Assembly (NCBI GenBank): GCA_903813345.2
Contig: CAIIXF020000001.1
Location: 9,424,001-9,488,000, forward strand
Direction of reading: 5' to 3'
Source: Owenia fusiformis
Lineage: Eukaryota
DNA length: 64,000 nucleotides
The notes beneath the pieces were generated by a model that had not been told where the DNA came from, made no database searches, and worked only from the letters and a program-made list of their open reading frames with translations. Of the stretch, positions 3,722 through 62,686 are shown in pieces. Each line of letters starts with the position of its first letter. Position 1 is the first letter of the stretch. A program made the translations under genes and the position numbers.

Positions 3722-18493
<14,772 letters not shown>

Positions 18494-18662
18494 CTTTTCT
18501 TCATATACTAATGTACACCATTTACAATCCTAGTCGGTCTTTATTATATACATGAAGTGGATATTGTTCTTTCAAAACGTCAACGAATTCGTCTCCATTT
18601 CCGAGCGACAGTAAACATAACAGGATCGGAGTGAATGCTTCTGAACTTCCGGGCTACAGTTT
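18494..18662. promoter_or_regulatory. Left remnant of a short divergent (RNF32 / METTL24-like) promoter
   Basis: CpG-containing stretch with ETS-type CTTCCGG just upstream of the inferred RNF32 ATG; a second TTCCGG lies at 30361-30366 across the transposon. Confidence 0.5.
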
Positions 18663-20063
18663 GGGACGTTTCGTTTTCCCCCTGATTGGACCCGCGATTA
18701 GAAAAGCCACATGGTTTATTTTCACATGATTTGACCCTTGGAAATGGAATAGTAATACCATGAAAGTTTGGTGTTTTACTCGAGAGATTTTAATGTGTAC
18801 ATATAAGTAAATATATTAATTATAAATATTGTCAAGGATAAGTCGCTGCATTATGTATTTGTGCAGAAAATACTAAAATTTTGAAACGGTTACGAGTTAA
18901 AATTTTAGAGTCGCCATTTTTTATTGAAATTTTCAAAGTCAAACTGCTAGTGCGATATATTCGTCCTGTACACGCAAATTCTGCAATATCTGTTGTCGGA
19001 AGACCTAACTTCGATATCTAGACATGTAACATTGGAAATAAAATCAGTTTGTATTTAGTTTTTTAGATTTGTAATCTAGAACTACAGTAGTCTAACAATG
19101 TCTAGAATAATATTTTCCACAAAAAATCATAAATTTCAATTTTATGCATAGGCCTATATAGGAATTGAATATACTGTATGAAGCATATTTCTAATGTTAT
19201 TTCAGCTAAAATTGGGTTTCAATAAATCAGTAGAGAGCCTAGACACATCATGCCATGAGGTCAGACCATTAGGATTTTCTCTAGCTCCCTAACGATTTGG
19301 ACCACAAGGCGGGACCACACCTGGCATCGGGACAAGTAGAATTGACCGAAATAAATATCTCCACTGCCCTCCACTCTGTGTACCAAGGAAAAAGAGAGTG
19401 AGGACCCTGTCGAAAAGTTTTGTAATGTATAACTGTTTCGTATGAATCGGTGTCGGTGAAGGTCATAATGTCTGTTTCGTATGAAACGGTGAAGGTCATA
19501 TTGCATTGGGACAAATTTGTCTTGTCCAAAGTTGGCCCCTGTAGGCTACACATGTAACTCAGTATATGCAAACTTTCTTTGCTCCATGTATGATGTCTAT
19601 ATTATCTCTTCTACTCCCTTACTTCTATTTGTTTAGTGGCTTTAATTTGTCAAATCTCTGTGACAGAATTGCCATCCTCTTAATCTATAAGTATTAGTCT
19701 ATCATAGGGGTCGCCTCATTGGTCTAAATCCCATTCATCCAAATCCCAATAGTCTGATTTCCATTGGTCTGAACTTAATTTTAATATCAAGATAAAGATG
19801 CAAGAAATGTATGAACATGGAATACATCACATTGATGTGTGTTTATTGAATAACATACATGTAGATTATCCATTTAGCCATGCTTATTCAAAATATTACA
19901 TTTCGCTTTTCTTGTGGTTGCCGTACTCCCTACATGCCAATCTGCACTTAGGGGATTAACATCATTCGAATAGATTAGGTAAATGGAATTGAATGTAGGT
20001 TTTAGATAGGTTGAGCTAAAATCGTATATTAAGTCTTTCTGTCATGATATTTAAATTTAAACA

Positions 20064-21314
20064 CTGTACTCCAGATAATTTTCATTTGGATTTTGTTTGA
20101 TTTTGTTTCGCAGAAAAATAATCTTCGCAAATTTCCCATTTTAAGACTGAGGTGCAAGTAATTGTATATCGTACCTTATACCACTCGAAGTCCAATTACA
20201 GTTGTATAACATGGGTCTATAACAACGATATACAGTGGGGAGTGGTATATCGTCATCGTATACAACTCCTCCGTATACACTCCAGCATATACCACTGTAG
20301 AAGTGCATTCTGGGAACTAATGAATAAAAAATATCATGAAAATTTTCATGATTTCCTAGAATCAAGTGACGTCATAAATGGTTCCGGCATGATTTGCTAG
20401 AATCAAGTGACGTCATAAATGGTTTGAGATCAACATCAGCATTATTGAGTTGGCTATGGGATATTTTTATGGTTTTTAATTGTTATGATTGTGTTCGAAT
20501 CAACTGTAATTAAACTTAGAGTGGCATAATAAGATTATATAATGGTTCATTCTGTATATCGTGCATTTTATACTCTCGTGAGAATATAATATATTCACTC
20601 GTTCGCTACGCTCACTTGTGAATATATCATATACTCACTCGAGTATAAACACGATATACAGAAAGAACCATTATATAACCTCATATTATACCACTCTAAG
20701 TCTGATTACAGTTGTATAACACGGGTCTATAACAACGATATACAGTGGAGAGTGGTATATCGTCATCGTATACAACTCCTCCGTATACACTCCAGCGTAT
20801 ACCACTGTAGAAGTGCATTCTGGGAACTAATGAATATTGACTGAAGAACGAGGTGTATGTTTTGTTACACATGATTTCCTAGAATCAAGTGACGTCATAA
20901 ATGGTTCCCATATGATTTGCTAGAATCAAGTGACGTCATAAATGGATCGATATCAACATCGGCATTACTGAGTTGGCTATGGGATATTTTTATGGTTTTT
21001 ATAATTGTTATGATTGTGTTTGAATCAACTGTAATTGAACTTAGAGTGGCATAATAAGATTATATAATGGTTCATTCTGTATATCGTGCATTTTATACTC
21101 TCGTGAGAATATAATATATACAGAATGAACCATTATATAACCTCATAATATCCAAATATATTGGGTAGGTGTAATTACTGTACATAGGGTAACTTAGTTT
21201 ACAGAGCTTGAGGATTCGGAGAATATGAAATTGAAACTTGTGAAATAGTGCCACGAAATTGTGATTTCTCAAAATTTGCAGAATTAAAACTTGCTAAATT
21301 GACCAGGAGTACAG
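20064..21314. mobile_element. Degenerate CTGTA...TACAG MITE interrupted by a hairpin-element dimer
   Basis: CTGTACTCCAGATAATTT at 20064 versus AAATTGACCAGGAGTACAG|TA ending at 21314. Confidence 0.5.
20176..21150. repeat. Head-to-tail dimer (~510-bp unit) of a double-inverted-repeat element
   Basis: Unit 1 20176-20685, unit 2 20686-~21150; each has an IR pair (TTATACCACTC..ATTACAGTTG / CAACTGTAAT..GAGTGGCATAA) and a long terminal hairpin, partly deleted in unit 2. Confidence 0.8.
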
Positions 21315-21959
21315 TATTGAAATTTAAATATCATATCAACAATTGTTAATTTTAGGATCATTAGGTTTCTGACCAAAGGGATTTGGACAATTGATATTCG
21401 GACCATTTATTTGGCCTATTACCTTTAAGATTTAATTATTTTCATTGATCATACCTTCAAAGGTGTGATTAGAGGAACAATAATAAACAATACACTTTTG
21501 ATTTTTCCAAACATTGGAATCATCTCTCAAAGTTCTGGGATATAATCACATGGGATTATCTGATGTTTTAATTGATCCTACCTTCAAAGATAGTATTAGA
21601 TTAGCAAAAAAACAATTTCTATTGATTTTTACAAACATTGGAATTACATAGTTCTGGAGTCTAATGTTTTCAATGATGAGACATCTTAATAAGATTATAA
21701 TATAATGATATGATACCTTCAAAGGTGTTTGAATATAGTTATAGCATCCAATAAGATTGCTTGAAATGTAGGAGTGTTCAATTACAACCAATGAGCTTTC
21801 TCTTGAACATCTTTAAAATACCATCAAATCTTAGTTTTATCAGATGAAGCGAGATACTTGTTCTTGGTAACATATATTGCTGAATCTTACTCTACAAATC
21901 GAACAGAAGCAAAATCATCATTTGATTAATTATTATTGAAAATCGATACACTAGTTGAA

Positions 21960-24900
21960 ATGGCTACTCTGATTGTGGGTGACAGTCAGTTGAAATATGT
22001 TCAAAAGTTTTTCGATGTGGATGAAGCAGTAGTTCTTTCTTATAGTGGTTGCAAAATTGAAGATTTACTTGAAAAGGTATCGGATATCCTTCCATCTTTC
22101 GACAACATCATTTACCATGTTGGGACTAACAATTCCAGCAATGAAACTGTCACCCAAATTATGAGAAAGTTTCAAAAACTAGTTTTCAGTACATTGTCTA
22201 AACAGTTTTGTCATGTTTATGTTTCGGGGATTCTGCCACGTGCTAGGAGCCATTTCCCAAAGGAGACATGCAGCAGATGCCAGAGGTACAGAGAAGAATG
22301 CAGAGTACATCCATCAGATGAGGCGCTTTACAACATGAACACTACTGCAAGGATGGTAAACCTGCTCCTCAGACATTACTGTGGTGAAACACCCCGTGTA
22401 ACATATATTCCACATATTGATTTTGCCAAACATGGCAAAATAGTACGTGGGATGTTGAGCCGGGATGGTCACCATATTAATGCCCGGGGACAGGCTGTTT
22501 TATGTCATAACTTATTTTCAGCTGTCAGTACTGTTAAATCTACCATTGGCTTAACCAAGGGTAACAGTGTTAAGGTGCCATCTGGCTCTGACCTGTCTAG
22601 TTCTGGTAGCAGTACTGCCCCGTTACGTAACTCTGTTACTTCGCGGGACAGTGCGACTACTGGAGCGAAAGACAGTGGACGAACCAGTGGTGTTAGGAGT
22701 TCCCCTGGCTTAACCAAGGGTAACATTGTTAAGGTGCCATCTGGCTCTGACCTGTCTAGTTCCGGTAGCAGTACTGCCCCGTTACGTAACTCTGTTACTT
22801 CGCGGGACAGTGCGACTACTGGAGCGAAAGACAGTGGACGAACCAATGGTGTTAGGCGTTCCCCTGGCTTAACCAAGGGTAACATTGTTAAGGTGCCATC
22901 TGGCTCTGACCTGTCTGGTTCCGGTAGCAGTACTGCCCCGTTACGTAACTCTGTTACTTCGCGGGACAGTGCGACTACTGGAGCAAAAGACAGTGGACGA
23001 ACCAATGGTGTTAGGCGTTCCCCTGGCTTAACCAAGGGTAACATTGTTAAGGTGCCATCTGGCTCTGACCTGTCTGGTTCCGGTAGCAGTACTGCCCCGT
23101 TAAGTAACCCTGTTACTTCGCAGGACAGTGCGACTACTGGAGCAAAAGACAGTGGACAAACCAATGGTGTTAGGAGTTCCCCTGGCTTAACCAAGGGTAA
23201 CATTGTTAAGGTGCCATCTGGCTCTGACCTGTCTGGTCCCGGTAGCAGTACTGCCCCATTACGTAACTCTGTTACTTCACGGGACAGTGCGACTACTGGA
23301 GCAAAAGACAGTGGACGAACCAGTGGTGTTAGGCGTTCCCCTGGCTTAACCAAGGGTAACATTGTTAAGGTGCCATCTGGCTCTGACCTGTCTGGTTCCG
23401 GTAGCAGTACTGCCCCGTTAAGTAACTCTGTTACTTCACGGGACAGTGCGACTACTGGAGCGAAAGACAGTGGACGAACCAATGGTGTTAGGCGTTCCCC
23501 TGGCTTAACCAAGGGTAACATTGTTAAGGTGCCATCTGGCTCTGACCTGTCTGGTTCTGGTAGCAGTACTGCCCCGTTACGTAACTCTGTTACTTCACGG
23601 GACAGTGCGACTACCGGAGTGCAAGACAGTGGACGAACCAGTGGTGTTAGCCGTTCCCCTGGCTTAACCAAGGGTAACATTGTTAAGGTGCCATCTGGCT
23701 CTGACCTGTCTGGTTCCGGTAGCAGTACTGCCCCGTTACGTAACTCTGTTACTTCACGGGACAGTGCGACTACTGGAGCGAAAGACAGTGGACGAACCAA
23801 TGGTGTTAGGCGTTCCCCTGGCTTAACCAAAGGTAACATTGTTAAGGTGCCATCTGGCTCTGACCTGTCTGGTTCCGGTAGCAGTACTGCCCCGTTACGT
23901 AACTCTGTTACTTCGCGGGACAGTGCGACTACTGGAGCAAAAGACAGTGGACGAACCAATGGTGTTAGGCGTTCCCCTGGCTTAACCAAGGGTAACATTG
24001 TTAAGGTGCCATCTGGCTCTGACCTGTCTGGTTCCGGTAGCAGTACTGCCCCGTTAAGTAACCCTGTTACTTCGCAGGACAGTGCGACTACTGGAGCAAA
24101 AGACAGTGGACAAACCAATGGTGTTAGGAGTTCCCCTGGCTTAACCAAGGGTAACATTGTTAAGGTGCCATCTGGCTCTGACCTGTCTGGTCCCGGTAGC
24201 AGTACTGCCCCATTACGTAACTCTGTTACTTCACGGGACAGTGCGACTACTGGAGCAAAAGACAGTGGACGAACCAGTGGTGTTAGGCGTTCCCCTGGCT
24301 TAACCAAGGGTAACATTGTTAAGGTGCCATCTGGCTCTGACCTGTCTGGTTCCGGTAGCAGTACTGCCCCGTTAAGTAACTCTGTTACTTCACGGGACAG
24401 TGCGACTACTGGAGCGAAAGACAGTGGACGAACCAATGGTGTTAGGCGTTCCCCTGGCTTAACCAAGGGTAACATTGTTAAGGTGCCATCTGGCTCTGAC
24501 CTGTCTGGTTCTGGTAGCAGTACTGCCCCGTTACGTAACTCTGTTACTTCACGGGACAGTGCGACTACCGGAGTGCAAGACAGTGGACGAACCAGTGGTG
24601 TTAGCCGTTCCCCTGGCTTAACCAAGGGTAACATTGTTAAGGTGCCATCTGGCTCTGACCTGTCTGGTTCCGGTAGCAGTACTGCCCCGTTACGTAACTC
24701 TGTTACTTCACGGGACAGTGCGACTACTGGAGCGAAAGACAGTGGACGAACCAATGGTGTTAGGCGTTCCCCTGGCTTAACCAAGGGTAACATTGTTAAG
24801 GTGCCATCTGGCTCTGACCTGTCTGGTTCCGGTAGCAGAACTGCCCCGTTACGTAACTCTGTTACTTCGCGGGACAGTGCGACTACTGGAGCAAAAGACA

Positions 24901-25868
24901 GTGGACGAACCAATGGTGTTAGGCGTTCCCCTGGCTTAACCAAGGGTAACATTGTTAAGGTGCCATCTGGCTCTGACCTGTCTGGTCCCGGTAGCAGTAC
25001 TGCCCCGTTACGTAACTCTGTTACTTCACGGGACAGTGCGACTACCGGAGCGAAAGACAGTGGACGAACCAGTGGTGTTAGGCGTTCCCCTGGCTTAACC
25101 AAGGGTAACATTGTTAAGGTGCCATCTTTCTCTGACCTGTCTAGTTCCGGTAGCAGTACTGCCCCGTTACGTAACTCTGTTACTTCGCGGGACAGTGCAA
25201 CTACTGGAGCAAAAGACAGTGAATGGGTCAGTGGTGTTAATGTCCCTCTTTATTCACAGGTGGGTGGTGGTGATGGTAAATCCATTGTTGTTGCAAATGA
25301 AAATATTCCATGGTCTACCAATAGATATGCCAGTTTTCTTTCTAGCGTTGATAACTCTCTCTTATCAACTAAACCTCCCATTAAACCCCGTGCAGGTGAT
25401 ATATACATATTCAACAGGGATCAGATCTTTGAAAAGGATTGGCGTTGTGATGGGTACTCATGGTCCAATAGAGGATCAGATCCAAGGGCATGTATAACTA
25501 AAACAGCTTTCAACATAAAAGTAATGGGGAAAGATGGAAAACCTCTTAAAAAGGGATCATCGCAGTTTCGAAAATTTGAAATTTCACTCATATCAAATAA
25601 AACATTTGTTTTGGTACATTATCTTGGGGATGAAAAATTGTATATACCACTGGCACATGGTAACAGTAAAAATAAGGAAATTGAATTTCGAAGAACAAAA
25701 CCTTCAGTACTTAATGATATCAAATCCCATTCTAGCAATGTTCCAAATGCTGTTTATCAGGATCTTTTGGCTTCTAATACTGTAGGCACAGAACAGGGCA
25801 TAGGTAATCCAAGGAACTTGCGCCAAGTTCAGCGCCATTTGCACAACTTTAAGAAAGAAAAAATGTAA
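21960..25868 (+). CDS. MULE polyprotein, N-terminal half: SGNH/GDSL hydrolase, 17 x 53-aa Ser/Gly/Thr repeat, CG-1/WRKY-GCM1-like putative DNA-binding segment
   Basis: SGNH blocks IVGDS, YSG, HVGTNN, VSGILPR, RDGHH; repeat array; DWRCDGYSW...LVHYLGD...HGNSK...RRTKPS...PRNLRQV. ATG at 21960 (track start 21936 is TTG). Confidence 0.8.
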   Translation: MATLIVGDSQLKYVQKFFDVDEAVVLSYSGCKIEDLLEKVSDILPSFDNIIYHVGTNNSSNETVTQIMRKFQKLVFSTLSKQFCHVYVSGILPRARSHFPKETCSRCQRYREECRVHPSDEALYNMNTTARMVNLLLRHYCGETPRVTYIPHIDFAKHGKIVRGMLSRDGHHINARGQAVLCHNLFSAVSTVKSTIGLTKGNSVKVPSGSDLSSSGSSTAPLRNSVTSRDSATTGAKDSGRTSGVRSSPGLTKGNIVKVPSGSDLSSSGSSTAPLRNSVTSRDSATTGAKDSGRTNGVRRSPGLTKGNIVKVPSGSDLSGSGSSTAPLRNSVTSRDSATTGAKDSGRTNGVRRSPGLTKGNIVKVPSGSDLSGSGSSTAPLSNPVTSQDSATTGAKDSGQTNGVRSSPGLTKGNIVKVPSGSDLSGPGSSTAPLRNSVTSRDSATTGAKDSGRTSGVRRSPGLTKGNIVKVPSGSDLSGSGSSTAPLSNSVTSRDSATTGAKDSGRTNGVRRSPGLTKGNIVKVPSGSDLSGSGSSTAPLRNSVTSRDSATTGVQDSGRTSGVSRSPGLTKGNIVKVPSGSDLSGSGSSTAPLRNSVTSRDSATTGAKDSGRTNGVRRSPGLTKGNIVKVPSGSDLSGSGSSTAPLRNSVTSRDSATTGAKDSGRTNGVRRSPGLTKGNIVKVPSGSDLSGSGSSTAPLSNPVTSQDSATTGAKDSGQTNGVRSSPGLTKGNIVKVPSGSDLSGPGSSTAPLRNSVTSRDSATTGAKDSGRTSGVRRSPGLTKGNIVKVPSGSDLSGSGSSTAPLSNSVTSRDSATTGAKDSGRTNGVRRSPGLTKGNIVKVPSGSDLSGSGSSTAPLRNSVTSRDSATTGVQDSGRTSGVSRSPGLTKGNIVKVPSGSDLSGSGSSTAPLRNSVTSRDSATTGAKDSGRTNGVRRSPGLTKGNIVKVPSGSDLSGSGSRTAPLRNSVTSRDSATTGAKDSGRTNGVRRSPGLTKGNIVKVPSGSDLSGPGSSTAPLRNSVTSRDSATTGAKDSGRTSGVRRSPGLTKGNIVKVPSFSDLSSSGSSTAPLRNSVTSRDSATTGAKDSEWVSGVNVPLYSQVGGGDGKSIVVANENIPWSTNRYASFLSSVDNSLLSTKPPIKPRAGDIYIFNRDQIFEKDWRCDGYSWSNRGSDPRACITKTAFNIKVMGKDGKPLKKGSSQFRKFEISLISNKTFVLVHYLGDEKLYIPLAHGNSKNKEIEFRRTKPSVLNDIKSHSSNVPNAVYQDLLASNTVGTEQGIGNPRNLRQVQRHLHNFKKEKM
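22548..25240 (+). repeat. 159-bp in-frame minisatellite, ~17 copies
   Basis: GGCTTAACCAAGGGTAAC recurs at exact 159-bp spacing from 22548 to 25092. Confidence 0.97.
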
Positions 25869-28655
25869 GGCAAAGATGCAGTTTATAATTTGATAGAATT
25901 AGCATATCACCTTGAAGGTTACATAATGAATGTTGACGTATATCCTAATTTGCTATGCTGTGTAGGTCTTAATACCACATTCTCCGAACTTTCAGATATA
26001 CTTTCAATTCAAAAAACCACCGAAATTCCTTTTTACATGAACTATGATTCGACTTATAATTTAGGCGACTTTTGGATTTCTCCCTTAACATTTCGACATA
26101 TTTTGTACAAAGGCAACAAAATTATACCTTTGGCCTATGTTATTCATGAAAAAAAAGATCAGAAATACCACGAGCGTTTTTTCTCAATTTTAAAAGATCA
26201 AATTCCTGCTCTTGGTAAACAAAAAAATATCCCAATAGTCATTGATAGAGAACGTGGTATAAAGAATGCCCTGGTGAATACAGGAATGTTCTCTGTGTTA
26301 CACTGCTGGAACCACATTATTAGCGATGTGAAACGCTGGCTGATAGGTCATGGTGCAACATCTGATGATATTACTGTATACATCTCCCAGGTTAGAAGTT
26401 TGCTGAAGGCTTGTAATTTAGAAGAATTTGAAGATCTGGAAGAAAAATTCTTTCCTCAATGGAGTCAAGCTATGATAGAATACTTTAGGGCTCATATTAG
26501 GTCAGACATTTTGAACCATTCTGTTCGTTGGGTGTTAGAGGGACATAACATGTACAATCCTTTCTCGGGTGTTACAAACAATAGTGCTGAATCTCATAAT
26601 GCAGTTTTGAAAAGACTACAAGAATGTAAACAAGCTCCCATTGATCAAATGGTTCTTGCGTTATATTTTCTACAAAATTCTTACCAGGCAGAGTGTCTCA
26701 GAGGTAGAGCGGGGATTGGAAATTACTTGCTTTTGCCTGAATTTTCGAATTGTTCAATTCCAATTGATGAATTAGTAATGCCAAATCATATATACAAATC
26801 TGAAGACATAATTGAAATGATTAAAAACAATAGGTGTTATGTTGAGGAAATAGGTTCAAATAGTCAGGAAGTTCAGTCTAATGAAAGTGAAGTCCAGCAG
26901 TTAAATAGTCCTAGCAATAGTGTAAATGATATTAACAATGAAAGTGTAGAGAAGCTCCAAACATCTCAGTTGACAAAATGTGATATTCCTGATAATCAAA
27001 TACAGGCAGAAATAAGCCAAATTCCTGTAGAGGAACTGTCAAATCAATGTCAATCACCAATGTCTCCCCATTCAGTTAATGATACTGTGTTAGGCTCAAA
27101 CGAACCAGTCAAGTTAGAAAGTAATGATATAATAAAGAGTCAAAACAATAGCAAACAATCAATGTCTCAAGTAGCTATGGCCAAAGCAGTTATCGATTCA
27201 AATGGTGTTAAACATATCCCGGAGATGGGTTGCTTTATTGTCCGTGGAATCAGAGAGGAAAAATATGCAGTTACTATTCATCCAAAAGAAAAGTGTCAGT
27301 GTCCTTCAACAAATACTTGTTACCATATAATTGCAGTGAAACTTTCCTTAGGTCAGACGTTAAATGATAATAAAAGAATTAAGAACTTAACAGTATTACG
27401 TAAAAATAGTAGAAAAAGGTCAGCAAAAAAAATAGGTGGAAAAAAGCCCAAACCCAGTGATTTTGATATAATTCCAGCCCCTGACTCATCTGTTGCTAAT
27501 ATTACTATGAATGAAAGTGATTTTAATGAACATATTTCCATTAATGATATTGCTACTTCAACCCCTAAATTAAAAACTAATCTTTGCAACTCAGAAATCA
27601 AATCAATATTAAAATCTCCTCGCATTCGTAAATCAAGCCAATCTAGAAAACGATTAAGATTTGAACAGTCCGAGCCAGTTGTGAATGATACAAACATTAA
27701 AAGAATGAAAACCCTTGTTGATAATTTAGTTGAAAATCATGATGAAATTTCAAATAGTTTAATCAATGAAATGGCCAGTCATGATAATTTAAGTAATAAA
27801 TCAGATGTTCAATTAAAATGTGAAAATAGTAAAGATAGTAATGAAATGGAAAAAAATGAAATTCAATCAGTCGACAAAGGTGCAGATAATATTAACTTTC
27901 TTAAAACTCAACATTCTGAACTTATTCTTAATCCAAAGGGATGGTTAGATGACCAGATAATTAATGCAGCTCAGTCAGTTCTAATGGGACAATTTGAAAA
28001 TATTTCAGGATTCCAATTAACAAACTATGCTCCCATTTATGTAGCAAATAAAAATATGTTCACTTGGTGTACTCCAATGATTTCAACTAATGGTCCTTCT
28101 GTGCAGATTCATCATAATGGCAATTCTCATTGGGTAACTTCAATTCAAGATTCTGATGGCAAAGTATATTTATTAGATAGCTTAAATAAAAAAGACATTA
28201 ACAGTAGCTTACAAATTCAATTAACTCAGATTTATAAACCAGATAGGGTAAACCATTTTGATGTTATTATTCCAGCTGTTCAAAAACAAAATAATGGTTA
28301 TGATTGTGGCCTCTTCTCTATTGCATTTATGACTGAGCTTTGCTTCAATGGGTTCAATGGGACAAGTAGAGTCGTATTTGAAGAAAAAGAAATGAGATCA
28401 CATTTGGTATCCTGTTTAACAGAGAAAAAAATTCTTCCCTTTCCAAAACAGACTAAGAAAAAATTAAAATTATCCAAAGTTGCCACATCAACATTCCAAG
28501 TAAGTTGTTTTTGTCCATGTGGCCAAGCTGATGTAGTACAAGATATGGTTGGCTGTGAGTTTGTGAGTAAAAAGCATGAATGTCAAACATGGTATCATAA
28601 AAAATGTTCTAAGCTTAAGAAAGTTTCAAAGAAGATGTATTGTCCTAATCATTAA
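25869..28655 (+). CDS. MULE polyprotein, C-terminal half: DDE transposase, SWIM finger, Ulp1/C48-type protease, PHD finger (same frame as the upstream ORF, after one TAA)
   Basis: YDSTYNLGDF (D1), VIDRERG (D2), HCWNH (CxxH), TNNSAESHN (E); SWIM CQCPSTNTCYH; Ulp1 WLDDQIIN, NSHW, LLDS, QNNGYDCGLF; PHD CPC...MVGCE...CQTWYHKKC...YCP. Confidence 0.88.
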   Translation, partial: GKDAVYNLIELAYHLEGYIMNVDVYPNLLCCVGLNTTFSELSDILSIQKTTEIPFYMNYDSTYNLGDFWISPLTFRHILYKGNKIIPLAYVIHEKKDQKYHERFFSILKDQIPALGKQKNIPIVIDRERGIKNALVNTGMFSVLHCWNHIISDVKRWLIGHGATSDDITVYISQVRSLLKACNLEEFEDLEEKFFPQWSQAMIEYFRAHIRSDILNHSVRWVLEGHNMYNPFSGVTNNSAESHNAVLKRLQECKQAPIDQMVLALYFLQNSYQAECLRGRAGIGNYLLLPEFSNCSIPIDELVMPNHIYKSEDIIEMIKNNRCYVEEIGSNSQEVQSNESEVQQLNSPSNSVNDINNESVEKLQTSQLTKCDIPDNQIQAEISQIPVEELSNQCQSPMSPHSVNDTVLGSNEPVKLESNDIIKSQNNSKQSMSQVAMAKAVIDSNGVKHIPEMGCFIVRGIREEKYAVTIHPKEKCQCPSTNTCYHIIAVKLSLGQTLNDNKRIKNLTVLRKNSRKRSAKKIGGKKPKPSDFDIIPAPDSSVANITMNESDFNEHISINDIATSTPKLKTNLCNSEIKSILKSPRIRKSSQSRKRLRFEQSEPVVNDTNIKRMKTLVDNLVENHDEISNSLINEMASHDNLSNKSDVQLKCENSKDSNEMEKNEIQSVDKGADNINFLKTQHSELILNPKGWLDDQIINAAQSVLMGQFENISGFQLTNYAPIYVANKNMFTWCTPMISTNGPSVQIHHNGNSHWVTSIQDSDGKVYLLDSLNKKDINSSLQIQLTQIYKPDRVNHFDVIIPAVQKQNNGYDCGLFSIAFMTELCFNGFNGTSRVVFEEKEMRSHLVSCLTEKKILPFPKQTKKKLKLSKVATSTFQVSCFCPCGQADVVQDMVGCEFVSKKHECQTWYHKKCSKLKKVSKKMYCPNH

Positions 28656-29681
28656 TTGATAGTAGGCATGCTCATATAAGTAGGTTGGCAGGTTACATAG
28701 ATGTATTTTAAAATTTTTGAATTTAGATTTTAGTATGTTTGGCAATGATGTATTATAATATGTAATCTATGTAGATCTCGGTGGATTTTAACATTGTGTA
28801 TATTTTTAAGTGTATTTTGCAATCCTGTATCTATAATGTATGTATTTATGTATAATGTACATGTACATGTATGTATATTTTGAATAAATCATGAAATGCT
28901 AATAATATGTTTTGTTTAATAATTTGTAATATGTTGGTTAACATGAACTTTTAATCAGTAACATTTTCAGTAGAGTTCAGCTGATGAGATCTGAATTGAT
29001 CGAAAGAAAAACTTGATGCATACTTTATCAACAAAAATAAGAAACTTATAAACAAGCAAGAATTTCATTTCAAATAGCCTATGATCTTAAATAGGCTACT
29101 TTATCAATGAAAGCATCATGTTTTTCTCCTGAACAAGACTGCATATTTGAAATGCATGAGGCAGTTTGATTCCATAATGGACCTTTAATTTACAAACTCA
29201 AGTGTATTATTAGAGAGACAAAACTCATATGAATTCATTATAATTTTCCAAAGAATAATCAAGCACAATGTATACAAAACTGAACTAAGAAATGTTAGAT
29301 GAAGCATATTATCTAGGTGGCAAATGACTGACTGATATAGGTGGTCTGTGTGTTATTCAAGCCACTCTGTATTCCTTTAGTTTTTTGCTTTTTTAACCTG
29401 GAAACTCATCATGCAGCAAAAAACCATGAAGCATGGTAGCACGGTGTGGGCGAATACAAAGCTGAACTAAGAAATAGATGAAGCATATTACCAAGGTGGC
29501 AAATGAAGGATTGGTATGGATGACCTTATGATTCATACAATAGGACTTCAGGTGTTCATGTGTTAGGTGGTGTTCATATACGTGAAAGGAGTCAATCTTC
29601 CTAGCCTATTATTTGCTCTTAGATCCTGGGCACCATCAGTCATATTAGCGAGAACTTCTGGAATGGGTGTGGTGAGGAATG

Positions 29682-29773
29682 GATATATCTTACTTCCTGC
29701 GAAAGCTATTTGGATTATATAATAGCATAAGTTTCAAAATCTAACATGGCTCTCGAAGTGAGTAAGATATATC
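29682..29773. repeat. Small palindromic element
   Basis: GATATATCTTACT ... AGTAAGATATATC inverted termini. Confidence 0.55.
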
Positions 29774-30377
29774 ATATTCAATGTAATAAATAAATAGTAT
29801 TGAAGCACATATCTATGTTACATAATAAAAGCAATCTTGGCACTATATCTAAGAAAATCTTGATAAAGGCTATGAACTCTGAATCACTATCAATAGATGG
29901 CAGCACTAATCAAGTAGGCTAAGTTGAAAATTTCCATGATAATTTGACTTGTTTTTGATAAGCTGTTTTTAGGTAATAAACTTGAAGATATGGGAATTAT
30001 TTTTGCTTTATATTTCAAAGTTAGATGTATTTTTAACATTTCAAATTATTAGATGTTATAAATTGGGATATTTTATGAGGAATTGATCCTTTTTTCCAAC
30101 GCCGACCAAGGGTCTAATCCAGGGTTTTGAAAAAAATTGAAGAAAATACGGTACGTTTGGTGACAGTTTTCTAAGACATCTGGATATATTTTCCTCAAAC
30201 CTTCAGATATTATTAAAGATAGAAATGTAATCTGTATGGAGAAGACAAAATTTATTCGAAAAAAGTACATTTTCAATATAAAAAACGCATTTGTTTTCGA
30301 TATAAACCAAGGGTTTAATCAGGGGTCAGAATCAGGGGTAAAACGAAAGGACCCTACAGTTTCCGGTTCTGAAAGAA

Positions 30378-33300
30378 ATGAAAAGTTTCAGATGTTTTCA
30401 AAGTAGAGTTATTATTACGGTTATTGCTGCTGTTGCTATTATAGATGCGATTGTATTTTTATATGTGGGTAAGTGTATGTAGCCTTAGAATACCATAGAG
30501 ATACAAGATATTTATTTTTTCCTGGTATTGATGTAGACTAGTATAGTCTGTTATGATGTACTACTTTCCTGTGGAAATTGCAGTGAAATATTTTGCACAA
30601 AATTATCAATTTGAGGAACCATTTCTTCAATAAAATAAACATAACAAAATTTCAATTAAATAGTAAGGTACAATTAAATGCAATAAAAAGTAACACAGCA
30701 TATTGCCAAGTGGAAATAAGGCTAGTTGAGGTAACAAATGTGCAATAATTAGTGCAGAGGGGTCATTCAACGATCATGGACCAGTGTCAAAATATATTTA
30801 AGTTTGGATATTTCATCAAGACTAACATCTATTTTTATTATCTACAAAGAAACCCCCTAGATAAACATTATTTTAGCTGATATTCCTCTTGAAACATGGT
30901 GGATCTTAAAAATATAAAAGTGGAAGTCCCCTTTTTGAAGCTTTGAACTGAATTTACACTTCTTAAAGTAACTTTCTATCATTTCATCTAAAAATTAAAA
31001 CCCTTGGAAATACTAAATATGGTTTGAGTGCCATATATAAAAATTTATTTTAGAAATATTGTGGATCAAAATGAAAAAAAAACAAAAATAAAGAATAAAA
31101 ACATATTCCACCCTTGGGATTTGAACCCAGATCTCTTGAAATAAAAGTCTGGTAGAGCCCAAAGCTATAACCACTACACCACAGTGCCAGAGCTTTCTGA
31201 AGGAAGAAATTCTTTATGTATAATTATGGACGAAAAAAGTCTTATTTACATGCTTAAATTTCTTAAAAATGATCAGCATTACTACTAATAATAACATTTT
31301 GCATGTCTGAGTAAGTATTTTGATGTACATTTAGGATAAATGTTGTTTTATTCAGTTTTCATTTTGGGTATGACTTCCTGTCAAAACAGTGTTAAAAATG
31401 CAGGGCTCAACAAAAATTTTCAATTAGAAAATGATATATATCCTTTGATCAGCTGTTTTTGGCACCTGAACTCATCCTACTAGAAAGGTAAGAGCATTTT
31501 CTTGAGACATATGGCTCGAAATCTCAAATTTCTCCTTCTAAGTCTTAGAAAGACACTTTAATGCTGAATTTGATAATTTATCCATACATTTTAAGAAAAT
31601 AGGTACGTCAAAGAAGATGTTAAACCAAATGTTGCCTTGATAGCTCAGAAAAAATGAAAAAACTTTCCTATTTTCTCTACAGTCCTTATTGCACAGTCAG
31701 AGAGAATGTTTCTGGCAAAATTCTGGGACTTCAAATACTTTTAAGTTGGGAAACCGGAAGTGCTTACCTTTTTTAATTCCCGAATCTCTCCGAAATTAGC
31801 TCATCTTGGTGACTGTAAATTGCACAGCTGTATTCAATGGAGTCTTGTCATATTCGATCAGCCTCAATTTTAAAGTGTATATTTTATTTTCAACGTGATT
31901 TCATCGTTTTTTGTCGACTGGTAAGAAAACGCCGGGCAAATGGCAAGATGGATGACTTTTGACCTGACCTTGACCGATGGTGATCACGTCATCAATATTA
32001 CCAAGATGGCGGTTTCAAAATTTCTAAAATCGCTTCAAATAATATTATGTTAATTCCTAGCGAGTAAAGATATCTCTTAGTTTGCTATTTCACAATAAGA
32101 TAACGAAATGTGTAAGGAATTCGTATTTATCAATTATTATTATCAGGTATTCGTAAACTGAAGATTTATCAAAATGAAGCTATTGATGCCCCCTTGTTTA
32201 TAAACAAGAAAATATGCAAATTAGCTAATTTTCTTGTTTATAAACAAGGGGGCGTCAATGGCTTCATTTTGATATATGTATCATTAGAATTGGACAGATA
32301 ACAGGCGTTCTATGATCTGAAAGGTGATCTCTGATTTATTGATTATATTTTAAATGGTTGCTATGGAAACGGGTGTTTTTGCAATTTTTGCCCCAAATTC
32401 AAACTTAGGTACAAGTGGATTTGAAATGCTGAAGTCCTTAGCTTTACAACGATACCTCATTTGTCCTTTTCCCCTTCGTGTATATTAATCACAATTTTCA
32501 GACCTCCATTCTACTAGCCTAATTGTCAAATGGAAATAAAGCTAGTTGAAGTAACAAATTGCAAATTAATTTTACCCAATCGACCATTTTGAATAGCACT
32601 TCCTATGTAAACAAATATCTATAATTACCAAACTTTAACATAGGTGCCTTATAGTCTGAATATAATTCAGACTAAACAGGATATAGTCTAGGGGTAGACT
32701 ACATGTACTTACCACTTCCAATAGTATGCGATCAGATAACTGGGGTTGTCACCTTACTTGAAGCTTGTAGAGTTTTATAGTTTCATACTGAACAGGTCAG
32801 AATGTAATCGCAATCAGGTCACCTAATTTCATTCATTAATATAATTACATAATATATTTTAGTGAACAAAAGTGATGCTTCAACACAGAAGCAAACCAAA
32901 ACAATAGAATATAGTGATAAGGACAATACTAAGGATGTTCTCCAACATGATGTGTTTGAGACAAAACGCTTTGTAGCAGAAGTGGCAGGACGTGGTAGTC
33001 TTGATGAAGAGGCAGATAGATTACTATCATACATCAGTACAAACCAGGTACGAATAACTGATATATTTAATACATTATGGCCAATCATAGAGACTTAAAG
33101 GTTAATTTCTAATGGTAGTGATGTTAAATTTTCCATCTGATGTGCGTTCAGCTGAACCAATAGGTGCCAGAATAAAGTGTTGAAATTATTTTTTATATTT
33201 AGTAAATGACTATACATTCACATACATGATTTTGTCATAGGGGTAGAATCAATGAATAAATAATGGATATTGTACATTTAAAACATATGTATGGGCAAAT

Positions 33301-62600: not shown

Positions 62601-62686
62601 ATCTATACATATACAGTAAAACCTGCGAACAGGGAATGCTCTTCGGACTGGAGGAAAGTTTCCTTGTTCAGAGGTTTTCCCTATAG
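59663..62686 (+). CDS. TauE/SafE (sulfite exporter)-like multi-pass membrane protein; exons 59663-59792, 61222-61434, 61641-62686
   Basis: Spliced frame WFNKYFCEGQALE...MIFGSLIAGMTSEGAAAIAFPVMTL...QSCGM...GFIGGIFTSIAASGVDIC...ATPTSV...VVGAPLGS; many hydrophobic helices in two similar halves. Confidence 0.8.
59948..60158. mobile_element. Degenerate CTGT...CAG|TA MITE in intron 1 of the TauE-like gene
   Basis: CTGTTAAAGCCCAAATTTTCA ... TGAAAATTAGTGCTTTTTCAG|TA with repeated TTTCAC/GTGAAA motifs. Confidence 0.5.

What the first reader, a model, noticed from the sequence alone, without database searches (positions are those of the whole stretch)
18663..30354. Complete 11.7-kb Mutator-like transposon encoding a ~2,230-aa multi-enzyme polyprotein (SGNH-repeat-DBD-DDE-SWIM-Ulp1-PHD)
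Seen in the sequence: TIRs, an 8/9-bp TSD and a single reading frame 21960-28655. Established: D-D-CxxH-E plus SWIM defines MULE transposases, and some MULEs carry Ulp1 proteases or PHD fingers. Inference: I do not recognise this full combination, with a serine hydrolase and a ~900-aa repeat linker fused in front, as a described architecture. It may be a new MULE lineage with three catalytic activities (esterase, transposase, cysteine protease).
Basis: partly seen in the sequence, partly recalled or inferred. Interest (0 to 1): 0.88.

Follow-up and report, generated by a model that had tools for sequence, protein, structure and literature searches.

The report
Mutator-like transposon carrying an esterase domain
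This is a young, low-copy Mutator-like DNA transposon of the worm Owenia fusiformis whose transposase gene starts with a retrotransposon-type esterase domain, a fusion also seen in a clam, so it looks like a new variant of a known transposon kind rather than a new kind.

Summary
There are imperfect ~38-bp TIRs, an exact 9-bp TSD and one 2,231-codon frame broken by a single TAA.

The core (CG-1-like DNA-binding domain, DDE with CxxH, SWIM, Ulp1, PHD) belongs to a very large animal MULE family: 6,223 representative proteins at E<=1e-3. Ulp1/PHD-bearing Mutator transposases of hydra and lancelet are already in print.

The new part is the N-terminal SGNH esterase:
- All catalytic blocks are intact.
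- The best solved match is the zebrafish LINE ORF1p esterase 4c1b (profile E 4.5e-9).
- It is not a one-off capture. A Mercenaria mercenaria protein and an unnamed ENA protein have the same SGNH, S/T-rich linker, DBD, DDE order.
- It is absent from the 150 best representatives and from 79 metagenome loci.

The ~900-aa "repeat linker" is a recent in-frame 159-bp x 17 minisatellite expansion, not a family trait.

This copy is defective: one premature stop and a nested 972-bp repeat insertion. Sense RNA reads cover the ORF at low depth.

Verdict: a new variant of a known kind, of moderate interest. "Polyprotein" and enzymatic activity are not shown.

The parts
18654..18662 (.). left target-site duplication CTACAGTTT
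   Evidence: read directly; identical to 30354-30362
18663..18700 (+). 5' terminal inverted repeat (~38 bp, imperfect)
   Evidence: a DNA-run contig (X2 record 2) begins exactly at 18663 (table 8)
18733..18741 (+). subterminal motif GACCCTTGG, inward-facing; its only other copy in the window is at 30106-30114 on the minus strand. Candidate transposase-binding site (inference).
   Evidence: 2 matches, 0.20 expected, 3 of 100 shuffles reach 2 (weak); one search also shows GATT..ACCC motifs in both ends
20176..21147 (.). nested insertion of a high-copy palindromic MITE-like repeat (two ~510-bp units), not part of the element proper
   Evidence: direct and inverted repeats; depth 84-122 per direction in DNA reads against about 1-2 in the ORF; an X2 contig joins 20175 to 21148, skipping 972 bp (tables 2, 5)
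21960..28655 (+). single transposase reading frame, 2,231 codons, interrupted by one TAA
21960..22544 (+). N-terminal SGNH (GDSL-type) esterase domain. Ser9 (GDS), Gly30, Asn57 (GTNN) and Asp169/His172 (DGHH) are conserved with the Mercenaria homologue.
   Evidence: Pfam Lipase_GDSL_2 E 0.006, below cut-off; Atlas features 0.95 to GDSL clusters; invariant columns; AF2 model pTM 0.60 with 89 Foldseek PDB hits at E<=1e-3, those listed nearly all SGNH/GDSL-type; 3-sequence profile against PDB, best 4c1b at E 4.5e-9
22547..25221 (+). in-frame minisatellite, 159 bp x 16.8 (53-aa S/T/G-rich units), 52.6% GC, with a 6-unit higher-order duplication
25290..25865 (+). DNA-binding domain shared with the family; matches Pfam CG-1 at 25338-25625
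   Evidence: CG-1 E 3.4e-6, 27.2 bits against cut-off 23.5; this segment found in 80 of the 150 best relatives
25866..25868 (+). premature TAA stop inside the frame, at a variable position just before the DDE domain
   Evidence: No frame-preserving intron fits: candidate GT..AG spans are 11, 17, 32 and 38 nt (my reading)
25890..26860 (+). MULE DDE catalytic domain: D at 26046, D at 26244, CWNH at 26304-26315, E at 26589
   Evidence: Pfam MULE E 2.6e-4, 21.8 bits, below cut-off 27.6; D276, D342, C362, H365 and E457 invariant in 7 sequences; found in 135 of the 150 best relatives
27270..27350 (+). SWIM-type zinc finger (CxC...CxH)
   Evidence: Pfam SWIM E 0.046, below cut-off; this segment found in 85 of the 150 best relatives
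27924..28394 (+). Ulp1/SENP-type C48 cysteine protease domain with His, Asp, Gln and Cys aligned to SENP8
   Evidence: Pfam Peptidase_C48 E 2.2e-6, 28.1 bits against cut-off 20.7; PDB 2bkq SENP8 E 0.0039
28512..28640 (+). C-terminal PHD-like zinc finger
   Evidence: zf-HC5HC2H_2 E 0.0055 and PHD E 0.21, both below cut-off; relatives P0014 and P0036 exceed the PHD cut-off
28884..28889 (+). AATAAA, candidate polyadenylation signal about 230 nt after the stop
   Evidence: sense RNA depth falls after 28707 (table 2)
29682..29766 (.). short high-copy repeat inside the 3' arm, absent from one contig of a DNA run
   Evidence: inverted repeat I13; joint 29681 to 29766 skips 84 bp (table 5)
30316..30353 (-). 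3' terminal inverted repeat
30354..30362 (.). right target-site duplication CTACAGTTT

Best explanation
The stretch 18663-30353 is one copy of a young, low-copy Mutator-like (MULE) cut-and-paste DNA transposon of the annelid Owenia fusiformis.

Its single gene encodes a transposase of the widespread animal type: CG-1-like DNA-binding domain, DDE(CxxH), SWIM, Ulp1 protease, PHD. In a sublineage shared at least with a bivalve, this protein has gained an N-terminal SGNH esterase of the kind found in LINE ORF1 proteins. An S/T-rich disordered linker joins the esterase to the rest. In Owenia that linker has been inflated to about 900 aa by a recent in-frame expansion of a 159-bp minisatellite.

Shown: element boundaries, domain order, conserved catalytic residues, homologous fusions in other species, and sense transcription.

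Inferred:
- The DBD binds subterminal GATT..GACCC-type motifs.
- The DDE domain excises the element and reinserts it with a 9-bp duplication.
- Ulp1 and PHD act on SUMO/NEDD8-modified and chromatin targets.
- The esterase is an accessory lipid- or acetyl-ester-directed module, as proposed for LINE ORF1p esterases.

This particular copy cannot make the full protein. It has a TAA before the DDE domain and a nested repeat insertion in its 5' arm.
For: TIRs and TSD.

Family membership:
- 6,223 representatives at E<=1e-3 and 290 at E<=1e-30.
- Segments found among the best 150: DDE 135, SWIM 85, DBD 80, Ulp1 35, PHD 10.
- DDE and CxxH residues are invariant in 7 sequences.
- The Ulp1 catalytic residues align to SENP8.

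SGNH domain:
- Blocks I, II, III and V are invariant between Owenia and Mercenaria.
- BLASTP of the Owenia domain against P0167 residues 3-183 gives E 1e-14, end to end.
- The profile against PDB gives 4c1b (ZfL2-1 ORF1p esterase) at E 4.5e-9. The next hit is at 2.3e-5.
- The model with pTM 0.60 gives 89 PDB hits at E<=1e-3. Nearly all listed are SGNH/GDSL-type folds (esterases, PAF-AH, O-acetyltransferase domains), apart from a few designed scaffolds.

Same order in other species:
- P0167 (Mercenaria, 821 aa) scores Lipase_GDSL_2 E 3e-7 and MULE E 2.3e-8.
- P0057 (ENA) has the C-terminal half of SGNH (E 1.5e-9), then a linker, DBD and DDE, in one protein.
- One clade holding the three SGNH bearers is not rejected (AU p 0.42).

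Other Owenia copy. Adjacent gene models CAH1789726.1 (SGNH + repeats, 99% identical) and CAH1789725.1 (DDE-SWIM, 98%) lie on one 39.8-Mb contig. CAH1789979.1 (Ulp1-PHD, 97%) lies elsewhere on it.

Reads:
- Per-contig depth in DNA run X2 is 98 over SGNH and 88-124 over DBD/DDE, against 63 for the flank.
- Two stranded RNA runs give reads almost only with the first mate on the minus strand, which means plus-sense RNA. Depth is 0.2-1 over SGNH and 0.5-4 over DDE-Ulp1.
- An in-frame 3-nt insertion variant (behind 27826) is present in RNA and DNA reads.
Against: - The window protein's own Pfam scores for Lipase_GDSL_2, MULE, SWIM and PHD are all below the curated cut-offs. Membership rests on relatives, profiles and motifs.
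- SGNH is absent from 150 of 150 best representatives. It is also absent from 79 of 79 metagenome loci, best E 0.24.
- On the DBD+DDE tree the three bearers need at least 2 changes, and P0057 lies outside the 16-row clade that holds Owenia and Mercenaria.
- Only one of three plus-strand frames of the repeat is open, so an accidental in-frame link has roughly a 1 in 9 chance (my estimate).
- Variation among repeat units is close to neutral: pN/pS 0.67, with variable columns 6, 5 and 8 by codon position.
- No read or contig was shown to span SGNH to DBD.
- RNA depth is very low.
- P0167 is a computed gene model.
- Whether the stop at 25866 is shared by other copies was not visible.
- No enzymatic activity was tested.
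Confidence: 0.75

Rival explanations
1. The SGNH part is a captured fragment (Pack-MULE style), for example from a LINE ORF1. It happens to be in frame through a stop-free GC-rich minisatellite, and it is not a functional part of the transposase.
For: - MULEs are known for capturing gene fragments (PMC6431247, passages read).
- The best solved match of the domain is a LINE ORF1p esterase.
- GC of SGNH is 0.405 and of the repeat 0.526, against 0.28-0.37 in the rest of the ORF.
- Repeat variation is near neutral.
- SGNH was not found in most relatives.
Against: - The same N-terminal SGNH-linker-DBD-DDE order, starting at residue 1-4, is present in Mercenaria (38% identity in DBD-DDE, 28% in SGNH) and in the ENA protein P0057. 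The fusion is therefore old and retained.
- All catalytic residues are kept between the two full domains.
- The frame starts with ATG at the first residue of the domain.
Confidence: 0.12
2. The family belongs to the Rehavkus group (PHD-bearing, minisatellite-carrying relatives of MULEs known from annelids and insects) rather than to canonical Mutator. On this reading the architecture is already catalogued in Repbase.
For: Dupeyron et al. 2019 (PMC6446971, passages read) describe Rehavkus as follows: hosts Arthropoda and Annelida, 9-bp TSD, TIR 26-400 bp, one ORF, PHD finger, minisatellite. This element has a 9-bp TSD, 38-bp TIRs, one ORF, a PHD-like finger and a minisatellite, in an annelid.
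Against: - The Rehavkus minisatellite lies before the 3' TIR. Here none is found in 28656-30354, and the array lies inside the ORF.
- Relatives exceed the Pfam MULE cut-off: P0036 36.0, P0167 34.8 and P0014 33.2 bits.
- SWIM and Ulp1 are not listed for Rehavkus in that table.
- No Rehavkus sequence was available for comparison.
Confidence: 0.1
3. It is a domesticated host gene rather than a transposon.
For: Copy number is low. Sense transcription is seen. Owenia has a clearly non-TE protein that reuses the same DBD with BTB and C2H2 domains (P0056).
Against: - TIRs and an exact TSD.
- A premature stop in this copy.
- A nested insertion that is absent from another individual's contigs.
- At least two loci at 97-99% identity on one chromosome-scale contig.
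- A contig break exactly at the TIR start.
Confidence: 0.03

Closest known systems
Animal MuDR/MULE transposons with a C-terminal Ulp1 (and PHD) domain: hydra and lancelet MuDR families of Repbase Reports, as cited in Bao, Kapitonov and Jurka 2010 (PMC2836005)
   Same: DDE transposase of Mutator type followed by a Ulp1 C48 protease and a PHD finger in one ORF. TIRs and a 9-bp TSD. Relatives with this order are abundant.
   Different: The passages read mention no N-terminal SGNH esterase. The Repbase sequences themselves could not be compared.
SGNH esterase (ES) domain of LINE ORF1 proteins, CR1/L2, RTEX and Penelope-like elements (ZfL2-1 ORF1p, PDB 4c1b; Schneider et al. 2013, PMC3905857)
   Same: It is the best solved sequence match of the domain (E 0.024 for the single sequence, 4.5e-9 for the profile). 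The GDS, G, GxN(D/N) and DGxH blocks are shared. In both cases the esterase is an accessory enzyme of a mobile element.
   Different: There it sits in ORF1 of an RNA-copied element, with a coiled coil. Here it is fused to the N-terminus of a DDE transposase of a DNA transposon. By fold, PAF-AH Ib and bacterial GDSL esterases score as well or better than 4c1b, which ranks 14.
Plant KI-MULEs / Ulp1-carrying MULEs (Hoen et al. 2006 and van Leeuwen et al. 2007, seen only as references in PMC2836005)
   Same: A Mutator-type element carrying a Ulp1-like protease.
   Different: Plant lineage, with no SGNH. From recall, not from a call, the protease is usually a separate ORF there.
Rehavkus elements (Repbase; described in PMC6446971)
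   Same: Annelid host, 9-bp TSD, one ORF, PHD finger, a minisatellite.
   Different: The minisatellite position differs (inside the ORF, not before the 3' TIR). SWIM, Ulp1 and SGNH are not listed for Rehavkus. Sequence relationship untested.
Terminons, giant Penelope-like retroelements of rotifers with GDSL esterase ORFs (Arkhipova and Yushenova 2019, PMC6431247)
   Same: A mobile element with a GDSL/SGNH accessory enzyme.
   Different: A retroelement, with the esterase as a separate ORF and no DDE transposase.

Membership tests
Mutator/MULE superfamily | DDE catalytic triad with a C/DxxH motif shortly after the second D | tested here: met
   D276, D342, C362-x-x-H365 and E457 (numbered from 25221) are invariant in a 7-sequence alignment
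Mutator/MULE superfamily | Match to the Pfam MULE transposase domain (PF10551) above the curated cut-off | tested here: inconclusive
   Window protein 21.8 bits against 27.6. Homologues reach 36.0 (P0036), 34.8 (P0167) and 33.2 (P0014) bits.
Mutator/MULE superfamily | TIRs flanked by an 8-11-bp (typically 9-bp) target-site duplication | tested here: met
   About 38-bp imperfect TIRs. CTACAGTTT 9/9, or TACAGTTT 8/8 with the boundary shifted by one base.
Mutator/MULE superfamily | SWIM zinc finger after the catalytic domain (many but not all MULEs) | tested here: inconclusive
   Pfam SWIM 13.7 bits against 19.6. A CxC...CxH pattern is present. The homologous segment occurs in 85 of the 150 best relatives, and P0088 scores 22.6 bits.
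Ulp1/SENP (peptidase C48) | Pfam PF02902 above cut-off, with the catalytic His-Asp-(Gln)-Cys | tested here: met
   28.1 bits against 20.7. SHW, LDS and QNNGYDCG align to the SENP8 catalytic positions. Activity not tested.
SGNH/GDSL hydrolase superfamily | Conserved blocks I (GDS, Ser nucleophile), II (Gly), III (GxN) and V (DxxH) | tested here: met
   S9, G30, N57, D169 and H172 are invariant with P0167. In Mercenaria the block I Asp is replaced by His.
SGNH/GDSL hydrolase superfamily | Flavodoxin-like fold with five parallel strands and a significant match to known members | tested here: met
   The model (pLDDT 62.6, pTM 0.60) has five strands. There are 89 Foldseek PDB hits at E<=1e-3; nearly all listed are SGNH/GDSL-type folds, TMq up to 0.65. 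Profile against 4c1b E 4.5e-9. Pfam Lipase_GDSL_2 is below cut-off: 17.5 bits (window) and 31.6 bits (P0167) against 32.9.
SGNH/GDSL hydrolase superfamily | Esterase activity | not testable with these tools
   Needs an enzyme assay.
Rehavkus group | Minisatellite just before the 3' TIR | tested here: not met
   TRF finds no array in 28656-30354; the only large array is inside the ORF. Feature as described in PMC6446971.
Rehavkus group | Transposase sequence groups with Repbase Rehavkus references | not testable with these tools
   No Repbase sequences available; supplements closed.
Pack-MULE (non-autonomous, gene-fragment-carrying MULE) | Carries captured host fragments and lacks its own transposase | tested here: not met
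   A full transposase frame is present.

The most novel reading that the evidence does not exclude
A lophotrochozoan lineage of Ulp1/PHD-type Mutator transposons has made a retrotransposon-type SGNH esterase an integral N-terminal domain of its DDE transposase. This would be the first class II (DNA) transposon with this accessory enzyme.

A close relative carries an N-terminal extension with a weak NADAR match instead (P0154, E 7e-7, below cut-off). Together these suggest a swappable 'accessory hydrolase slot' in front of the DNA-binding domain.

Independent recruitment of the same esterase type by LINEs, Penelope-like elements and a DNA transposon would imply that the enzyme serves a step common to all of them, such as membrane or nuclear-envelope passage or germline targeting, rather than RNA packaging.
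Probability: 0.45. Interest if true: 0.68.

Novelty: new variant of a known kind. Interest (0 to 1): 0.55.

Why it matters
SGNH esterases are a long-standing puzzle in LINE ORF1 proteins, Penelope-like elements and Terminons. Their substrate and their role in mobility are unknown (PMC3905857, PMC6431247).

Finding the same type of domain fused to a cut-and-paste DDE transposase, and conserved between an annelid and a bivalve, separates the esterase from any RNA-based step. It offers a simpler system for asking what the enzyme does for a mobile element: one protein and a DNA intermediate.

It also shows that the large animal Ulp1/PHD MULE family has a variable N-terminal module. It gives a worked example of an in-frame coding minisatellite inflating a transposase linker about 17-fold.

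For genome annotation, it explains two adjacent 'partial' gene models in the Owenia proteome as pieces of one transposon gene.

Tried and rejected
- The repeat finder (seed 10) did not list the TIR pair. The ends had to be read directly.
- The window's own genome is not held, so genomic copies with these TIRs could not be collected and no copy consensus or insertion-age estimate was made.
- Word-based search with the SGNH domain found no protein at 'near' lengths (0 of 74 candidates). At 'longer' lengths it found only the Owenia model P0151 (1 of 459).
- Single-sequence AlphaFold of the SGNH domain was unusable (pLDDT 38.4) and was not searched.
- The run listing gave 'no RNA holder listed' among indexed runs. 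This says nothing about expression. The raw RNA runs were laid instead.
- The metagenome scan found 394 relatives, 79 loci kept, none with SGNH. Many of those contigs are short, and they are 27-39% identical, so absence is weak evidence.
- An intron that would remove the TAA was considered. The GT at 25865 with downstream AGs gives 11, 17, 32 or 38 nt, none frame-preserving, and no RNA joint within the ORF was listed (75 joints not shown). Rejected.
- pN/pS among repeat units (0.67) does not decide whether the repeat is under protein-level selection.
- Joints 21142 to 28826 and 21154 to 29689 in X2 could be deletion derivatives. Both ends lie in high-copy nested repeats, so they were not used.
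- Small ORFs in the non-coding arms have no Pfam match worth noting: 6 ORFs, best Flocculin E 0.013.
- Earlier findings of this scan: nothing by place, sequence or words.
- Kapitonov and Jurka 2003 on esterase and PHD in CR1-like elements is not held. Only its title was seen, in a reference list.
- My own slips: a wrong frame, a size limit and a script error. Each was corrected in the next call.

Full report
**Observation.**
The window is AT-rich (about 33% GC) and full of repeats.

Reading the two ends directly shows imperfect terminal inverted repeats. They start at 18663 (GGGACGTTTCGTTTTCCCCCTGATT...) and, on the other strand, at 30353/30354 (GG(G)TCCTTTCGTTTTACCCCTGATT...). By my count on the alignment, about 31 of the first 38 columns match.

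The 19-nt core occurs exactly twice in 64 kb, once at each end in inverted orientation. The chance expectation is 0.05, and 0 of 100 shuffles reach two. The repeat finder with a 10-nt seed missed the pair.

The flanks carry CTACAGTTT at 18654-18662 and 30354-30362. This is an exact 9-bp duplication if the element ends at 30353.

A contig of a DNA run begins exactly at 18663 (table 8). This fits a real element boundary.

**Reading frame.**
- One frame runs from ATG 21960 to the stop at 28653-28655. It is interrupted only by TAA at 25866-25868.
- No frame-preserving intron fits around that stop. Homologues have ordinary, variable residues at that position. I read it as a simple nonsense mutation in this copy.
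- The small ORFs in the 3.3-kb 5' arm and the 1.7-kb 3' arm have no family match.
- An AATAAA lies about 230 nt after the stop.

**Host.**
- No genome is held for the window.
- Three NCBI proteins named Owenia fusiformis are 97-100% identical to parts of the frame:
  - CAH1789726.1: SGNH plus repeats, partial.
  - CAH1789725.1: DDE to SWIM, partial.
  - CAH1789979.1: Ulp1-PHD, partial.
- All three lie on one 39.8-Mb contig. The first two have adjacent accession numbers, so they are probably one locus split into two gene models. The third is another locus.
- These proteins differ from the window at several residues. The variant that distinguishes CAH1789726.1 (A>G at 22290) is the only allele seen in all four runs laid.
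- So the window copy is a different allele, copy or assembly, and the family is young (97-99% identity between copies).

**The core is a known kind.**
- The part after the repeat (1,144 aa, X at the stop) finds 6,223 representative proteins at E<=1e-3 and 290 at E<=1e-30.
- I cut the window protein into segments and searched the 150 best hits. DDE is found in 135, SWIM in 85, the DBD in 80, Ulp1 in 35, the PHD part in 10, and SGNH and the repeat in none.
- Named members come from Pinctada, Crassostrea, Mercenaria, Mactra, Capitella, Owenia and a fish, Paramormyrops.
- In a 7-sequence alignment the two Asp, the CWNH motif and the Glu are invariant.
- The Ulp1 part exceeds the Pfam cut-off. It aligns to SENP8 with His, Asp, Gln and Cys in place.
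- Bao et al. 2010 (PMC2836005; passages read) state that Ulp1 is encoded in Mutator transposons of hydra and lancelet, and they align Ulp1 and PHD of Mutator transposases.
- So DBD-DDE-SWIM-Ulp1-PHD is not new.

**The esterase domain.**
Evidence on the window protein alone is weak:
- Lipase_GDSL_2 E 0.006 and OSK E 0.068, both below cut-off.
- A language-model match of 0.95 to GDSL clusters.
- PDB best hit 4c1b at E 0.024.

The decisive result came from the third homology search. The Mercenaria mercenaria protein XP_053406440.1 (P0167, 821 aa) is 38% identical over the DBD-DDE and carries precomputed Pfam MULE and Lipase_GDSL_2. My own scan confirms this, at E 2.3e-8 and 3e-7.

The two N-terminal domains are homologous:
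- P0167 residues 3-183 align end to end with the Owenia domain (E 1e-14, 28% identity).
- Ser9, Gly30, Asn57, Asp169 and His172 are invariant.

A two-sequence HMM searched against all 209 proteins fetched so far found a third bearer. P0057 (ENA, unnamed organism) begins with the C-terminal half of the domain including DGLH (E 1.5e-9). It continues through a ~140-aa linker into DBD and DDE.

With the three sequences as a profile:
- The best solved match is the esterase of the zebrafish ZfL2-1 LINE ORF1p (4c1b, E 4.5e-9). The next hit is at 2.3e-5 and PAF-AH at about 1e-3.
- An AlphaFold model from three sequences (pLDDT 62.6, pTM 0.60) has five parallel strands between helices.
- That model gives 89 PDB hits at E<=1e-3. 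Nearly all listed are SGNH/GDSL-type folds, apart from a few designed scaffolds. PAF-AH reaches TMq 0.63-0.65, and 4c1b is at rank 14.
- The Atlas model of P0167 agrees.

The domain is therefore an SGNH hydrolase, closest in sequence to retrotransposon ORF1p esterases.

**How widespread is the fusion?**
- It is absent from the 150 best representatives.
- It is absent from 79 metagenome loci, kept from 394 relatives.
- On a DBD+DDE tree of 49 rows, Owenia and Mercenaria fall in one supported 16-row clade (SH-aLRT 98) whose inner branching is unresolved. P0057 lies outside it, in a polytomy. The trait needs at least two changes.
- A tree holding the three together is only 2.4 log-likelihood units worse and is not rejected (AU p 0.42).
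- Rows entered the tree only if the DBD covered 120 or more query residues and the DDE covered 270 or more. P0057 was admitted despite its truncated DDE.
- Absence in other rows is soft. Many are ORF calls on short contigs.
- A 90%-identity relative of P0002, P0154 (1,814 aa), has an N-terminal extension with a weak NADAR match (E 7e-7, below cut-off). This hints that the N-terminus of this family is a variable slot.

**The repeat.**
- The array has 16.8 units of 159 bp, 96% alike. The units are in frame as 53 S/T/G-rich residues, at 52.6% GC against about 33% elsewhere.
- Units 3-8 recur as units 9-14, so a 6-unit block was duplicated.
- Variation is nearly neutral (pN/pS 0.67).
- The Mercenaria and ENA proteins have 110-140-aa non-repetitive S/T/P-rich linkers in the same place.
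- The '~900-aa repeat linker' is thus a recent, probably length-variable expansion of a disordered linker. It is not an architectural feature.

**Copy number and expression.**
- In Logan contigs of DNA run X2, per-contig depth is:

| Region | Depth |
|---|---|
| Flank | 63 |
| 5' arm | 173-204 |
| SGNH | 98 |
| DBD/DDE | 88-124 |
| 3' part | 224-316 |

- This means a few copies at most, with SGNH and transposase at similar depth. The ends are somewhat more frequent, which may reflect deletion derivatives. The tool warns that such depths are rough.
- Raw DNA reads (X24) give about 0.3-4 over the ORF.
- One contig joins 20175 to 21148. The 972 bp between them reach depth 84-122 per direction. 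This is a nested high-copy MITE-like insertion specific to the window copy.
- Two stranded RNA runs give reads over the ORF almost only with the first mate on the minus strand, which means plus-sense RNA. Depth is 0.2-1 over SGNH and 0.5-4 over DDE-Ulp1, and it falls after 28707.
- No intron inside the ORF was among the joints listed (75 not shown).
- An in-frame 3-nt insertion variant is present in both RNA and DNA reads.

**Mechanism.**
- Shown: the anatomy and the conserved residues.
- Inferred from what is known of MULEs: the N-terminal DBD recognises the subterminal motifs (GATT..GACCC, with GACCCTTGG facing inward at both ends). The DDE domain cuts and reinserts the element with a 9-bp duplication.
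- Ulp1 and PHD probably couple the transposase to SUMO/NEDD8-modified and chromatin targets, as Bao et al. 2010 proposed.
- For the esterase the only experimental analogue is ZfL2-1 ORF1p. [quoted passage not shown]
- I therefore favour an accessory lipid- or acetyl-ester-directed role. This is speculation.

**Novelty.**
- Two full-text searches returned no paper describing an SGNH/GDSL domain in a Mutator or other DDE DNA transposon. One search found 59 papers, 20 listed. One search found 3 papers.
- The listed cases are LINE ORF1p, Terminons, and a Helitron that captured an SGNH gene.
- Repbase and Repbase Reports are outside the library, and the supplementary tables of PMC6446971 were closed. 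A catalogued entry cannot be excluded.
- Rehavkus elements (annelids and insects, PHD, minisatellite) are a possible classification. Their hallmark minisatellite position is not met, and no sequence was available for comparison.
- I rate this as a new variant of a known kind. It is of moderate interest because it puts a retroelement-type esterase into a DNA transposase.

Noticed in passing
P0056 (Owenia fusiformis protein, 806 aa; not in the window): BTB/POZ, C2H2 fingers and two copies of the same CG-1-like DBD as this transposon, with no DDE domain. It looks like a host transcription factor built from the MULE DNA-binding domain.
   Followed up: partly
P0146 (Capitella teleta ELT95607.1, 1,394 aa): Six tandem copies of the family's DBD segment and no DDE. 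UniRef names it a 'CG-1 domain-containing protein'.
   Followed up: no
window 25338-25625 and relatives: The family's DBD exceeds the Pfam cut-off for CG-1, the CAMTA DNA-binding domain. Scores: 27.2 bits in the window, 28.5 P0057, 36.2 P0075, 51.9 P0056, 24.2 P0168, 26.8 P0174. P0057 also has a weak WRKY hit and P0075 a FLYWCH hit. This suggests CG-1 is related to MULE DNA-binding domains.
   Followed up: partly
P0154 (1,814 aa, same 90% cluster as P0002): An N-terminal extension of about 550 aa with a weak NADAR match (E 7e-7, 30 bits against cut-off 35.1) in front of DBD-DDE-...-PHD.
   Followed up: no
window 20176-21147: Two tandem ~510-bp palindromic units of a very high-copy repeat nested in the element's 5' arm. 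It is abundantly represented in RNA reads (about 110-126 per direction) and absent from another individual's contig.
   Followed up: partly
window 3-2039; 9162-9809 and 12976-15774: LINE fragments: a reverse transcriptase ORF running off the window start, and an endonuclease ORF plus a 932-aa RT ORF with zf-RVT. No ORF1 esterase was found anywhere else in the window.
   Followed up: partly
window 10778-12816: A satellite-like array with units spaced about 134-148 bp, 14-20 copies. It lies between the LINE endonuclease and RT ORFs.
   Followed up: no
window 17500-17966 and 30576-31042: Very high-copy repeats just outside the element. DNA read depth is about 70 and about 970 per direction, against about 1 in the ORF.
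   Followed up: no
window 61508-62686: A 392-aa open frame matching TauE/SafE sulfite exporter (E 5e-12), probably an exon-rich host gene or a single-exon gene.
   Followed up: no
window 18434-18900: RNA reads of the opposite orientation (first mate on plus, about 5 per run) over the 5' TIR and flank. This may be an antisense or read-in transcript.
   Followed up: no
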